DNA of 64,000 bases from contig OX597826.1 of NCBI GenBank assembly GCA_951406725.2, forward strand, positions 77,748,001-77,812,000. Direction: 5' to 3'. The position numbers and the translations under genes are program-made. The DNA is from Octopus vulgaris. Taxonomy: Eukaryota. Numbering within the stretch: the stretch's first letter is position 1; each line of letters starts with the position of its first letter. This document shows positions 6,061 to 56,537 of this stretch, piece after piece. The notes beneath the pieces are model-generated. The model ran no database searches. It had not been told where the DNA came from and worked only from the letters and a program-made list of their open reading frames with translations.

Positions 6061-6320
6061 ATTATTTACATTTGACGGCCATATGGCGTAGTGGTTAAGA
6101 GCGCGGGCTACTAACCACAACATTCCGAGTTCGATTCCAGGCAGTGACCTGAATAATAATAATAATAATAATAATAATGATAATATCGAAAAATACCCTA
6201 GGAATGAGAACCCAGGTTCGAAATTTCCCCAGGACACCTGATGAAGGCTGGAGGGTGTATCAGCCGAAACGTTGTGTTAATAAACAAGATGAGGGCAAAT
6301 ATCCGTCAAATGTAAATAAT
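6061..6320 (+). mobile_element. Composite retroelement: tRNA-like head + (AAT)n + hammerhead ribozyme + AATAAA, bounded by an 18-bp inverted repeat
   Basis: A-box TGGCGTAGTGG; B-box GTTCGATTCC (6129-6138); HHR at 6233-6278; IR ATTATTTACATTTGACGG (6061-6078) / CCGTCAAATGTAAATAAT (6303-6320). Confidence 0.8.
6233..6278 (+). ncRNA. Minimal type I hammerhead ribozyme
   Basis: Stem I gacac/gtgtt; core CTGATGA; stem II ggctg/cagcc; GAAA; loopless palindromic stem III (AACGTT); GUU cleavage triplet. Confidence 0.8.
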
Positions 6321-6425
6321 GTTGATTCATTAGAAACTTTGATTCTATCTTCGAGTTCGAGCCATAGTTAAGGTTGATTAAAGCGTAACTTTCGAACACA
6401 CGCATGTCGCCAAAAGCAGAATAAT

Positions 6426-7014
6426 ATTTGTTTCAAATTTAGGCACAAGGCCTGAAATTTTCGAGGAGAGAGTTAATCGATAACATCGACCCCAATGCGT
6501 AACTGGTACTTATTTTATAACCTTCAGAAGGATGAAGAGGCAAAGTCGACTCCGCGGAATTTGAACTCAGAACGTAAAGATTGACGAAATACCTATTTCT
6601 ATTTCTTTATTACCCACAGGGGGCTAAACATAGAGGGGACAAGCAAGGACAGACAAAGGAATTAAGTCGATTACATCTACCCCAGTGTGTAACTGGTACT
6701 TAATTTATCGACCCCGAAAGGATGAAAGGCAAAGTGGACCTCGGCAGAATTTGAACTCAGAACGTAACAGCAGACGAAATACCTATTTCTTTACTACCCA
6801 CAAGGGGCTAACCACAGAGAGGACAAACAAGGACAGACAAACGGATTAAGTCGATTATATCGACCCTAGTGCGTAACTGGTACTTATTTAATCGACCCCG
6901 AAAGGATGAAAGGCAAAGTCGACCTCGGCGGAATTTGAACTCAGAACGTAGCGGCAGACGAAATACCGCTAAGCATTTCGCCCCGCGCCCTCACGATTCT
7001 TCCTGTTCGCCACC
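6426..7014 (-). mobile_element. SINE family A, head plus three tandem bodies
   Basis: Three copies of the GACCCCGAAAGGATGAAAGGCAAAGTCGAC-like core. Units join at AAAGAAATAGGTATTTCGTC (sense). The last unit has a different tail (CTTGTGCCTAAATTTGAAAC). Confidence 0.9.
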
Positions 7015-7544
7015 TGACATGCATCTATAATATCAACCCAAGCGGTCTTTAAGTACAGAAATTATTTTTCATTTAATTAGTCTTTATTTGTTAAAAGCTT
7101 TTGTTGCTGTTGTTTTGTTTTTGTTGTCGTTGCCATTCTAAACATATGTCAAAAAAATAAAAATAAAAAAGCTATAAATTGTCGAGTTTATCTCTTTAAT
7201 GTCGGCACCATCTGTGACATTTCTGCTGTCTTACTCTTTAAGCGGAATTTGTCGAGAGAATCTCGCATTTCATCCCAGTTTACGTCAGTCGACTTTAAAC
7301 GGCTTGGCGGTTAGTTTCGGGCCCAAACCTCGCCATCCCACTGCATTGCATCGTACCACACCGCATCACATTGCCATTAATGTGGAAATCACAAAAGAAG
7401 CGACCGATGTTTTGCAATCAAATCATTAGAAGAAACCAGACTTTTCGAATGGAAGGAACTACTTTGATTTCTGATGCATCTCTTTTGGAACAAATGCTTC
7501 GTACAAAAGGGTTTGACAAAGGGGACGGAGCGGGGGGGGGTTCG

Positions 7545-7925
7545 TTTTATCTTTTACATGTTTTTCAGTCATTAGACTGCGGCCTCACTGGGGCACCACC
7601 TCGAGCAATTTTAGTCGACTTAATCAACCCCAACACATACATTTTAACCCTGGCATATATTCTATCCTTCGCTTTTGCTGAATCGATACTTTATGGGAAC
7701 GTAAATACACCGACATCGGTTGCCAATCCATGATGGGAAACAAACCCAACACACACACATACGACGGGCTTCGTTCAGTTTCCGTCAACCAAATCCATTC
7801 ACAATGCTTTGGTTGGCCTGTGACTATAGTAGGAGGCACTTGCTCAAAGTGTCCCACAGTGGGACTGAACCTAAAATTATGTGGTTGGGAAGCAGATTTC
7901 TTACCACACAGTCGCGCCTGCGCCT
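7545..7925 (-). mobile_element. tRNA-derived CORE-like SINE family B
   Basis: Sense head AGGCGCAGGCGCGACTGTGTGGTAAGAA...GGTTCAGTCCC; CORE-like GACACTTTGAGCAAGTG; internal (GT)n; tail GCCGCAGTCTAATGACTGAAA. Confidence 0.85.
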
Positions 7926-9144
7926 ACGGTTTAATCATGAAAGACCGATGGCCTGATTCACCCGAAGCTGTAAATAAGAGTTATGAATAGCTAAAGTGAT
8001 AGACTTTACCAGGCGGTCGAGCCCGAGGCCAGCTCCAAGCGATTGGATGTCTTTAGCTGGGTGGAAACTGCAAAGAGAAGCAGTCACAGATATTGGTGAC
8101 TTTCGAAAGGCTTTGCGTTGGACGGAAACCGAGAGAAGGAGGAGGAGGAGAGAAATTGGAGGAAAGGGAAGAGGATAAAGTAGGGGGAAGAGGAAGGAAG
8201 AAGGAAAGGAGGGCGTACAGAAGAAGAAGAAGAAGAAGAAGAAGAAGAAGAAGAAGAAGAAGAAGAAGAAGAAGAAGAAGCTATATTATAATTACTTCGT
8301 TTTCTTCCATAAGTCTCGGCGACTCTATGAAAGATCACGTGTGACGGCCCTCCTTCACTGATTAAGAGAATTATATTTAAGAAATTAATTCTGTTTAGAT
8401 CGAATGTGATCGTTAAATCTAATGTTTTGAATATATTGATTAACTTTTTTCGTAGCTTTTAATAAATACTGTCCTTATAGTAATCCTAACGAGAAATTAT
8501 TGTATATTAATAACAATTCGATTCACCTTAGTAAATGCATATCTGCCACGTCTTCCGAAGTGGAACTTTTTAGTCGTGGTTTACATTATTAAAATGAAGC
8601 AATAAAAGACATTGGCTTCAAAAACAGAAAGCATTACTTAAAGAACTGTGCTAATATTCACAAAAACATAAAAAAAGGAAACTAAAACTATGCGGTATAA
8701 TCCTATCTGTAGGTTAAATGTTGGTTCTGACTTATCAGGATTTTCTTAAACATTATAAATAAGCATTTCTTTGTAGACCCTGTATATCACAATATCTTTA
8801 ATAAAAATATCATTAAGGTAAGCTACAGATACATCAAAAATTTATATTTCCATAGTCAGTGAAAGCAATAGAAGAATTTCTTGTATGAACACGCTTAATT
8901 CGCTCAGTGCAATTGCAGTAAACTCTAATATCTGCACTCGGTTTGTGTCGTTCTAAACCGTTAGTTTTTAGAGCTTAGGTCTGCCATGCAGTTTGCAATG
9001 AAAGAAAGAACTATACAAAGCTTACTGAAAATACAATTAAATAAGATTCTCTCAACATATCTATGCGTTCAGACACTTAGTACAGCGCTTGCCATTTCGC
9101 ATTCAAAATATATCTGGAGATTAAAGGAGGATAATCCGTATTTT

Positions 9145-9410
9145 ACCTTTTTTTACATGGTTCAGTCATTGAACTGCGGCCATGCTGGGGCGCCGCATTG
9201 CATGGATTAACCGAACAAACCGATCCCAGAACTTTTCAAAAATCTGGTATTTATTTTATCATCTTTTATTTTTTGCCGAACCGCGAAATAACGGGAACAT
9301 AAATAAACCAACACCAGTTGCCAATCGACGGCGGGAGATAAATACACCACAAACTCAAAGACACACGAACAGATATACACGACGGGCTTCTACGCATCAC
9401 CAGGCATTAT
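9145..9410 (-). mobile_element. SINE family B, 3' portion
   Basis: TTCAGTCATTGAACTGCGGCCATGCTGGGGCG...GACGGGCTTCT matches the other family B copies. Confidence 0.75.
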
Positions 9411-54600: not shown

Positions 54601-54677
54601 AATAGTAATAATAATGATAATAACAATTGTTATTATTATTATTATTATTATTATTATTATTATTATTATTATTATTA

Positions 54678-54930
54678 TGGGTTTTTCTTCTTCTTTCAAA
54701 TTTGCTTCCATTTCTTGCCGAGTGTCTTCTCGACTCCTAGGGCAAAGAAACTCATATTATACATTGGTAGGCCATTAAACTAAACTCACTAGTTCGTTCA
54801 TTTTTTTTTTATAGAAATAAAGTTAAATTAAAATACATGGGTAGTAATAGTTCTCACATCGACAATGCTCTTCTCAATACGTGTGATGTACCAGTTAAGA
54901 GGATCTTTTGCACTTCTTGCAGGGATGGTT
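54678..54930 (-). mobile_element. R4/Dong-like 3' fragment F inside (TTA)n
   Basis: Minus strand PSLQEVQKILLTGTSHVLRRALSM* plus UTR; (TAA)n on the sense strand at both ends. Confidence 0.85.
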
Positions 54931-55087
54931 TATTATTATTATTATTATTATTATTATTATTATTATTATTATTATTATTATTATTATTATTATTGTCGTT
55001 GTTGTTGTTGTTGTTATTGTTGTTATTATTATCATTATTATTATTATTATTATTATTATTATTATTATTATTATTATTATTATAATA

Positions 55088-55646
55088 AATGTCCTGATAC
55101 AGTACCAGGCTGTGGATCTCATGGCTCCTGATCTTAACTGATTAGAAGTGTTATCATGTACAGTGTTTTGTCTTGGTATCAAAGATGGGCTACAGCAAAT
55201 ATTCTGCTCAATACCACAGATTTGCGTGTCAGTCATTTGACCATGACCAGTTGAGCATGTCCCTTAGTGGCTGACGATATATGCATCTCTGACCACGAGC
55301 AGAAGTAATAGGGGAGCATCATAGCCATGTGTTGAAAGGAATTCTTGGAGGTTTGGATAATTCACCTTTGGAAACATGGGTGGTTTGTTCAATATCCTTA
55401 AACAACCGTTATTCATGGTCCTTTTGAGCGGGATGTGCTACTCGACCAGAAGAACATTCTAACTGGGCCCCACCTGCAAGGTCATGCGCTGTTTATCTTG
55501 ATATGAGATCACCATGTCGCGCACTTATGGTTGTGATACCTGTGCCTGGTGTACCCTTATCAGACGGGTAGTCATGACGGGTATATTGGGCTTCGTATAT
55601 TTGTACCCAAGTGTCACTTCGATCGCATGCACTGCTTTCTCACTCA
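55088..55646 (+). mobile_element. Unclassified ~560-bp insert between (TTA)n and (AAT)n, probably a retroelement 3' UTR
   Basis: Complex non-coding block with sharp boundaries inside the trinucleotide array. Confidence 0.5.
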
Positions 55647-56454
55647 ATAATAATAATAATAATAATAATAATAATAATAATAATAATAATAATAATAATA
55701 ATAATAATAATAATAAAGATAATAATAATTTTATTTGTTAAATGCAACTGTTACTCTTGCTGATTACGATGTTGTTCGCTTAGTAAACACAGACGTAGAA
55801 TGTTGCAGCTACTGCTGTTGTTGTTGTTGCTCTTGTAGCTGCCAGACGTTGTGCATAATCATTAAAACATATAATAATATTGACTGGTTCTAGGAATTCT
55901 GATGTAAATATTGGTTCAAGGAGATAAATGTGGAAGTCAATGCAGTGTGAAATACATCCGTACATGTATGCACATGTGCATGCATATATGTGTATGTATA
56001 TGTGTATGTGTATGTGTGTGTATGCATATACATATGGGTATGTGTGTGTATATGCATGTGCGTATGTATGTATCTATGTATCTATGTATCATCAAGCTAG
56101 CTAGCTTTTATCCGTCTCTCAATACATACATAACCGTCCATCCATCAACCATCCATCCACCCATCCATCCATCAATCCAGCCAGCCAGACATCTACTCAT
56201 TCTTCCACATATTCACGCATACATGTATGTATGTATGTATGTATGTATGTATGTATGTATGTATGTATATTTGAGTAGTTGAATGAATTATCTTGTTATG
56301 GATAATTCGGTTAACCGATACCTGGGTAGCAAATTCACATCAGAGAAGACACGGTTGAAGTTACGTGCTTTCGTGTGGAAATTTGTATGTTTTTTTTAAA
56401 TATATAAATATATGAAAGAATGGAGTTGAACGACGAATTAACAAAATTCCTTTA

Positions 56455-56537
56455 TTTTCGACATATGTTTCGAAGGCTGCATATTCCTAATTGCGAAGGA
56501 ATAAGGAGTATATTATGCTGCTTTCTCATCAGGAAAA
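56455..56537 (-). ncRNA. Canonical-core type I hammerhead ribozyme
   Basis: Sense ttttc-CTGATGA-gaaagcagcata...tatgcagccttc-GAAA-catatg-TC-gaaaa with an overlapping AATAAA. GUC site; palindromic stem III. Confidence 0.85.

What the first reader, a model, noticed from the sequence alone, without database searches (positions are those of the whole stretch)
6233..56537. About 8 unrelated hammerheads, most with palindromic stem III (dimer-dependent switch)
Seen: HHR cores at 6233 (+, AACGTT), 18235 (-, ACGT), 30218 (-, ACCGGT), 30443 (+, CAGCTG), ~32110 (+, degenerate), 49183 (-, AACGTT), 50514 (-, CAATTG) and 56455 (-, CATATG). Flanks and stem II differ between families, but stem III is a different self-complementary word in each. 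Known: such minimal HHRs in PLEs and retrozymes cleave efficiently mainly as dimers. Inference: the palindrome could act as a family-specific pairing code. At roughly one motif per 8 kb, long pre-mRNAs could be cut when two same-code copies are co-transcribed.
Basis: partly seen in the sequence, partly recalled or inferred. Interest (0 to 1): 0.7.

Follow-up and report, generated by a model that had tools for sequence, protein, structure and literature searches.

The report
Penelope-element hammerhead relics, shared palindromes
The eight hammerhead-shaped RNA motifs are real copies from repeat families (five sit in tails of Penelope-like jumping genes, three likely do); their palindromes fit the published idea that such motifs likely cut only in pairs, but families share palindromes, so they are not a family code on their own, and one abundant family carries an untested change in the catalytic core.

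Summary
All eight motifs exist and each belongs to a dispersed repeat family. They form seven families, not eight: 18235 and 49183 are sister subfamilies. Four families (five motifs) sit downstream of Penelope-like RT/GIY-YIG reading frames elsewhere in the genome. Palindromic stem III is real: 28 of 36 hits of a palindrome-blind scan, against 0 of 21 in shuffles. The eight use only five words (ACGT x3, ACAGCTGT x2), and 25 sampled families use 12. A hammerhead dimer also swaps stem I, so predicted pairing specificity comes from stems I and III together; symmetry alone demands the palindrome. Four window copies are intact, two impaired, two dead, and no intact same-family pair shares a strand. 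Second copies near a motif are mostly inverted (65 versus 5 of 240 loci). This is the minimal hammerhead of Cervera and De la Pena 2014, and the scan reached the same verdict on other genomes. The residue of interest is a very abundant Neptune-type lineage with a fixed A6U core, which I did not find described. Cleavage and intron depletion were not tested.

The parts
6233..6278 (+). Minimal type I hammerhead, family F1 (CUGAUGA-A, 5-bp stem I, word ACGU, U17); intact; tail of a PLE with a Penelope/Poseidon-type endonuclease
   Evidence: GIY-YIG frame upstream in L008 and L013
6078..6150 (+). tRNA-like head (A- and B-box-like words, consensus recalled) followed by (AAT)n, upstream of the F1 hammerhead; part of the element's 3' UTR
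   Evidence: lies directly after the endonuclease stop in L008/L013; no ARAGORN or Rfam tRNA hit
18235..18268 (-). Hammerhead of subfamily F2b (family core CUGUAGA, word ACGU); this copy reads CUGAAAA (C3-A8 mismatch), predicted dead
30218..30255 (-). Hammerhead, family F3, U3-A8 core variant, word ACCGGU; intact, relatives 97-98% identical; tail of a Neptune/Nematis-type PLE
   Evidence: Rfam HH9 20.5 bits, below gathering 52
30443..30532 (+). Hammerhead, family F4, long stem II, word ACAGCUGU; first stem I position changed against the family majority, predicted impaired; no ORF link found
32106..32187 (+). Hammerhead, family F5 (family word ACAGCUGU); core and palindrome broken in this copy, predicted dead; no ORF link found
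32032..32093 (-). Inverted, 5'-truncated partial copy of F5 (3' half only)
49184..49217 (-). Hammerhead, family F2, core CUGUGGA (family-level A6U), word ACGU; one stem II mismatch in this copy; tail of a Neptune/Nematis-type PLE
50514..50617 (-). Hammerhead, family F7, 77-nt stem II region with U-U at its base, word ACAAUUGU; core and palindrome intact; no ORF link found
50707..50804 (+). Inverted, 5'-truncated partial copy of F7
56455..56537 (-). Hammerhead, family F8, word ACAUAUGU, C17; intact, relatives 98-99% identical; tail of a Hydra-like PLE

Best explanation
The eight motifs are type I minimal hammerhead sequences in scattered, 5'-truncated repeat copies; five lie in the 3' tails of Penelope-like retrotransposon families and three likely do, and the intact ones are predicted to cut only as strand-swapped homodimers. 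In such a dimer the core and stem II come from one RNA, while U16.1, H17 and the 3' strand of stem I come from the other. Two identical RNAs can pair stem III only if it is self-complementary, so symmetry explains the palindrome (inferred from topology). Partner choice is predicted to rest on stem I plus stem III. Words drift between lineages by compensated changes and are freely reused. The likely role is processing of the element's own tandem or multimeric RNA (inferred from the literature, untested). The solo genomic copies are likely mostly inert passengers in host transcripts.
For: Motifs exceed shuffles. Palindrome-blind scan: 28 of 36 hits palindromic against 0 of 21 hits in 5 shuffles. 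Family majorities restore damaged copies. GIY-YIG frames lie on the same strand upstream: about 570-790 nt for F3 and F8, directly before the tRNA-like head for F1 (L008, L013), and 15 of 20 loci picked on the RT/EN region carry the F2 motif downstream. Inverted truncated second copies and (TA)n ends match PLE architecture (PMC8557442). Unconstrained cofolding returns the swapped dimer for F4 and F5 majorities and for the 56455 copy. Same-word pairs F1xF2 and F1xF2b have no stem I pairing. Words are reused. One related copy (L320, 75% identical to F8) shows a palindrome-keeping double change, ACAUAUGU to ACACGUGU.
Against: No cleavage was measured. F4, F5 and F7 have no linked ORF in the loci held. 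For the ACGU families the dimer is not favoured over two monomers (+1.7 to +1.9 kcal/mol), and unconstrained cofolding of the F2, F2b and F8 majorities gives other folds. Copy ends show no spike at the predicted cut. Direct tandems, the natural cis partners, are rare (5 of 240 loci), so the source of the partner is unexplained. Published in vitro activity of such dimers is low (PMC4209133), and 8 of 9 Xenopus retrozyme dimers did not cleave (bioRxiv 10.64898/2026.07.22.740005).
Confidence: 0.82

Rival explanations
1. The stem III word is a selected family address that keeps co-resident families from cross-pairing.
For: Each family holds one word. Different-word heterodimers lose 4-15 kcal/mol of stem III pairing. 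One word switch between related lineages (L320 vs F8, a single copy). Words of 4 to 12 nt occur.
Against: 25 families or singletons use 12 words, with more sharing than either null (families may be related, so this is descriptive). ACGU serves at least 3 unrelated lineages here and is the commonest word among the 56 motifs in Fig S3 of PMC4209133. F4xF5 is predicted to cross-pair (-21.6 against -23.8 and -30.4 kcal/mol for the homodimers).
Confidence: 0.1
2. Dispersed copies cut long host pre-mRNAs when two compatible copies are co-transcribed, and so act on gene expression.
For: About 1 strict motif per 25-30 kb in the 800-kb sample. Direct same-family neighbours are rare against inverted ones (5 vs 65 of 240), which selection could produce. 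Xenopus retrozymes are under-represented in introns (bioRxiv 10.64898/2026.07.22.740005; strand not reported in the passages seen).
Against: No intact same-family same-strand pair lies in the window. In the 264 kb around it, only 9 of 25 profile hits are intact, and the two intact F1 copies lie on opposite strands. Copies decay: 134 of 240 best-scoring relatives keep core and palindrome. Inverted flanking copies are a known PLE insertion product (PMC8557442).
Confidence: 0.08
3. The motifs, or at least the A6U lineage, are no longer ribozymes and are kept as a protein-binding or dimerisation structure, or simply carried along.
For: The most abundant lineage has U at position 6 (37 of 41 copies). 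A6C costs over 10,000-fold in Mg2+ relative to Mn2+ in one tested ribozyme (PMC7151607). Naiad PLEs proliferate without canonical hammerheads (PMC8557442). No copy-end spike at the cut.
Against: In that lineage position 7 takes all four bases and position 17 takes U, A or C but never G in 41 copies (pattern left both free). These are the free positions of an active hammerhead, while G5, G8, A9, G12-A14 and the stems are kept across 4 subfamily clusters.
Confidence: 0.15

Closest known systems
Minimal hammerheads (min-HHR) in pseudo-LTRs of metazoan Penelope-like elements, Cervera and De la Pena 2014, PMC4209133 (read: main text through Methods start, parts 1-2 of 4; supplement parts 1-2 of 3)
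   Same: Type I topology, short stem I, extra base after A9, palindromic 15.2-16.2 segment, U3-A8 variant, several families per genome, mostly solo truncated copies, opposite-strand neighbours, proposed dimer activity.
   Different: Stem II regions of 54-77 nt in F4, F5, F7 and F8 (4-8 bp stems with short loops in Fig S3); 8-nt palindromes are frequent; all 56 motifs of Fig S3 keep A6, whereas F2 has U6.
Small PLE-associated hammerheads that cleave as dimers, Lunse, Weinberg and Breaker 2016/2017 (not held; seen only as title and as summarised in review PMC6765202, passages)
   Same: Very short palindromic stem III; dimer cleavage.
   Different: Cannot be compared in detail; it may already list A6 variants or cephalopod families.
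Animal non-LTR retrozymes, Cervera and De la Pena 2020, PMC7229834 (passages) and Li et al. bioRxiv 10.64898/2026.07.22.740005 (abstract, part 1 of 5, passages)
   Same: Type I hammerheads, dimer dependence in amphibians, a U-U mismatch at the base of stem II as in F7.
   Different: The window's motifs are solo or inverted copies, not 150-450-nt tandem arrays. A true array lies elsewhere (L281, about 355-nt period).
Natural core variants, Perreault et al. 2011, PMC3088659, and A6C study, PMC7151607 (passages)
   Same: U3-A8 covariation; position 6 variant with low but detectable activity; palindromic stem III and dimer model for Aedes repeats (Fig S8 legend).
   Different: Their position 6 variant is A6C in one phage; here A6U is fixed in a repeat lineage with very many copies.

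Membership tests
PLE minimal / short-palindrome type I hammerhead | Core C3U4G5A6N7G8A9 ... G12A13A14, or U3-A8 variant | tested here: met
   Met by majorities of F1, F3 (U3-A8), F4, F5, F7, F8; F2 treated in its own row
PLE minimal / short-palindrome type I hammerhead | A at position 6 (lineage F2/F2b: 18235, 49183) | tested here: not met
   U6 in 37 of 41 copies and in 4 of 6 clusters; filed as a variant, not as a canonical member
PLE minimal / short-palindrome type I hammerhead | Stems I and II closing the core, A15.1-U16.1, H17 not G | tested here: met
   All 8 majorities; F4 stem I has a 3-nt bulge; F5 and F7 have a mismatch at the base of stem II
PLE minimal / short-palindrome type I hammerhead | Palindromic segment between 15.1 and 16.1 | tested here: met
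   All 8 majorities; 28 of 36 palindrome-blind hits against 0 of 21 in shuffles
PLE minimal / short-palindrome type I hammerhead | Self-cleavage, dependent on dimers | not testable with these tools
   Only folding energies
EN+ Penelope-like element | RT plus C-terminal GIY-YIG frame upstream of the motif, same strand (F1, F2, F3, F8) | tested here: met
   Pfam RVT_1 (28.8 bits, just under cut-off) and GIY-YIG (23.5 bits) for F3, GIY-YIG 21.4 bits (under cut-off) for F8; linkage; F1 and F2 read from translations, not Pfam
EN+ Penelope-like element | Same, for F4, F5, F7 | tested here: inconclusive
   No linked frame in 30 loci each, nor in the longer stretches fetched for F4 and F7; inverted truncated copies fit PLEs
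EN+ Penelope-like element | Pseudo-LTR arrangement: direct or inverted truncated second copy | tested here: met
   Inverted second copy in 65 of 240 loci, direct in 5; ORF-bearing copies L211, L212, L215 flanked by inverted copies
Non-LTR retrozyme | Head-to-tail tandem repeats of 150-450 nt each with a hammerhead | tested here: not met
   No direct tandem at any of the 8 sites
Rfam hammerhead families | Gathering score reached | tested here: not met
   0 hits on 8 loci; best 20.5 bits to HH9, gathering 52, at 30201-30266; none at 6233

The most novel reading that the evidence does not exclude
The most abundant hammerhead lineage in this genome, carried by a Neptune-type Penelope-like element (28 profile hits in 800 kb, some from its A6 sister family; order 10^4-10^5 copies by extrapolation), has fixed U in place of the near-invariant A6 and still cleaves as a dimer, as an attenuated or metal-ion-tuned natural core variant. 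Standard CUGANGA descriptors would miss it, so genomic hammerhead counts would be too low.
Probability: 0.35. Interest if true: 0.5.

Novelty: new member of a known kind. Interest (0 to 1): 0.25.

Why it matters
As found, it adds one more genome rich in PLE hammerheads and corrects the code idea: any address is stem I plus stem III. It offers a ready panel for a clean experiment that I did not find reported: natural same-word pairs with different stem I (F1, F2), a same-word pair with partly compatible stem I (F4, F5), and palindromes of 4, 6 and 8 nt. If the A6U lineage cleaves, it widens the natural hammerhead core; if not, it shows that a PLE can reach high copy number with a crippled ribozyme, which bears on the open question of what PLE hammerheads do.

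Tried and rejected
Rfam E-value scans were swamped by microsatellite miRNA models; only the best 150 of 589 and of 223 hits were shown, so they say nothing on hammerheads. The repeat finder was likewise swamped. A descriptor allowing hairpin or palindrome with one core mismatch did not beat shuffles (103 vs mean 98). Copy boundaries show no spike at the predicted cut (2 to 51 hits per family, so weak for F3-F8). No host exon was recognised by eye among unique ORFs (output cut, not scanned against Pfam). Intron strand test: dynein, myosin and ion-channel exons were located but no intron DNA could be had, so the test was not run. Intact counts were wrong for F2 (pattern fault) and were redone. 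An alternative helix between the 3' strand of F2 stem II and a conserved downstream GAGCG word has pairing probability 0.13-0.45 in 4 copies: inconclusive. Literature searches for A6U or CUGU-N-GA cores, for octopus PLE hammerheads, tRNA-headed PLE tails and heterodimer tests found no describing paper in the listings; Lunse et al. was not held. The word table was compiled by hand; it includes 6 singletons and leaves out non-palindromic or mixed clusters and 9 singleton palindromes not starting with AC.
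Full report
Setting. The window is G000:C13:77748001-77812000 of a 2.8-Gb animal genome, 35% GC and rich in microsatellites. An octopus-like host is my inference from recalled genome features; it was not tested.

Observation. All eight motifs are present. A descriptor with exact core, stems I and II and a palindromic stem III finds 5 sites in the window against a mean of 0.48 (max 3) in 40 shuffles; with one core mismatch, 12 against 5.1 (max 10). Each site has at least 40 scored relatives elsewhere. 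Majority sequences from 30 loci per query give a complete hammerhead in all eight cases. Against these, 6233, 30218, 50514 and 56455 are intact. 30443 has lost the first stem I position and 49183 a stem II pair. 18235 (C3-A8) and 32110 (core and palindrome broken) are predicted dead.

Corrections. 18235 and 49183 are sister subfamilies, so there are seven families. Read from A15.1 to U16.1 the words are ACGU three times, ACAGCUGU twice, and ACCGGU, ACAAUUGU, ACAUAUGU once each. The window is denser than average: 80 evenly spaced 10-kb stretches hold 39 copies of these families, 15 with intact core and palindrome.

The palindrome is real. A strict descriptor that does not ask for a palindrome gives 36 hits in those 800 kb, 28 exactly palindromic (7 from one tandem array); five shuffles give 2-7 hits each, none palindromic. 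Several of the 8 others are one substitution from a palindrome. Two small families have true hairpin stems III instead.

What carries them. F3 (30218) lies about 620-790 nt downstream of the end of an RT + GIY-YIG frame with a CX4CxxC linker. F8 (56455) lies about 570-660 nt downstream of a GIY-YIG frame that lacks the cysteines between GIY and YIG, as described for the Hydra clade. F1 (6233) follows a GIY-YIG frame without the linker finger in L008 and L013. For F2 (49183), 15 of 20 loci chosen on the RT/EN region carry the motif downstream on the same strand, and the frame has a CX4CxxC linker. Clade names rest on these motifs, not on a tree. F4, F5 and F7 have no linked frame in the loci held. 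Family similarity runs on about 50-110 nt beyond the cut in F1-F3, into (TA)n for F2 and F3. A second copy within 1.5 kb is inverted in 65 of 240 loci and direct in 5.

How it likely works. A 4-8-nt stem III cannot close as a hairpin, or only weakly. In a dimer, A15.1 of one RNA pairs with U16.1 of the other, so H17 and the 3' strand of stem I also come from the partner (inferred from topology). A homodimer therefore needs a self-complementary word, and a heterodimer needs matching stems I as well. Approximate intermolecular energies (contiguous pairs only): homodimers -15.6 to -30.4 kcal/mol; F1xF2, same word, -5.8; F2xF2b equal to the homodimer; F4xF5 -21.6; all other pairs -11.3 or weaker. 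Unconstrained cofolding returns the swapped dimer for F4 and F5 majorities and for the 56455 copy, nearly so for F3, and not for F2, F2b or the F8 majority. Against open monomers the dimer gains 10-17 kcal/mol for 6-8-nt words and nothing for ACGU. So pairing is predicted to be mostly family-specific, but through stems I and III together.

The code idea. Across 1.96 Mb held, 25 families or singletons use 12 words; 24 of 300 pairs share a word, against 5.6 or 15.5 under two nulls (hand-compiled, families not independent). Selection for distinct addresses predicts the opposite. One copy related to F8 shows a palindrome-keeping double change, which fits drift under a dimer constraint as well as a code.

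Cutting host RNA. The window has no intact same-family pair on one strand; F4 and F5 lie 1.6 kb apart on + with the same family word, but the F5 copy is dead. In 264 kb, 9 of 25 profile hits are intact. Whether the window is transcribed is open, and the intron strand test was not run.

The A6U lineage. In 41 distinct copies with the GUAG loop, picked by a pattern that left the core and position 17 free, position 6 is U in 37, position 7 is G, A, U or C (16, 12, 7, 6) and position 17 is never G (many of these copies were fetched by likeness to the two window copies). Clustering 133 copies gives four U6 clusters and two A6 sister clusters. All 56 motifs in Fig S3 of PMC4209133 keep A6; Perreault et al. 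report A6C with low activity, and A6C shifts preference to Mn2+. My searches found no A6U report, but Lunse et al. could not be read, and bioRxiv supplements are closed.

Comparison and verdict. Cervera and De la Pena 2014 describe the same class: many families per genome, palindromic 15.2-16.2, U3-A8, dimers, low activity. Earlier notes of this scan on other genomes reached the same verdict on the code idea; I looked them up after searches had settled my reading. The finding is a new instance of a known kind. Interest 0.25, mostly for the A6U lineage and the natural panel for heterodimer tests.

Noticed in passing
window 6078-6150 +; L008, L013: The F1 element carries a tRNA-like segment with A- and B-box-like words between the endonuclease stop and the hammerhead; both boxes matched my recalled patterns in 7 of 30 loci. 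It could give a Pol III transcript containing the hammerhead. Many inversion junctions fall at a palindrome just before it (by eye).
   Followed up: partly
240 loci: Second copies are inverted 13 times more often than direct. The direct tandem that would supply a cis partner is almost absent; insertion mechanism, cleavage of tandem RNA or selection could each explain it.
   Followed up: partly
L281:3082-4560 + and a second run on the minus strand: A true tandem retrozyme-like array, period about 355 nt, 7 hammerheads with word ACCGGU.
   Followed up: no
L356, L357, L300; window flank +94759: A6 sister family of F2 with a UCC loop; 8 of 16 copies read CCGACGA (U4C).
   Followed up: partly
F2 lineage, about 20 nt downstream of the cut (window 49160-49170 -): A GAGCG word is kept in all clusters and can pair with the 3' strand of stem II, a possible off-conformer.
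   Followed up: partly
L186, L300, L309, L353: Family with U3-A8 core and word AAUU, lacking the usual C15.2-G16.2.
   Followed up: no
window 48349-48612 +: 88-codon frame resembling, from recall, the post-RT region of Hydra/Nematis-type PLEs; tblastn found only itself.
   Followed up: partly
window 44791-45429 +: Fragment resembling, from recall, the C-terminal restriction-like endonuclease of a non-LTR retrotransposon; no Pfam hit.
   Followed up: partly
window 43717-44067 and 47966-48229: Two related stretches in the window with near-identical translated starts.
   Followed up: no
window 5148-5509 and 6650-7011: 362-nt inverted pair, 91% complementary, flanking the F1 insertion; probably two copies of an abundant short repeat.
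   Followed up: no
L224:4398-7338 -: Long C2H2 zinc-finger frame; F4 copies recur on C27 at multi-kb spacing, apparently duplicated with a zinc-finger gene cluster.
   Followed up: no
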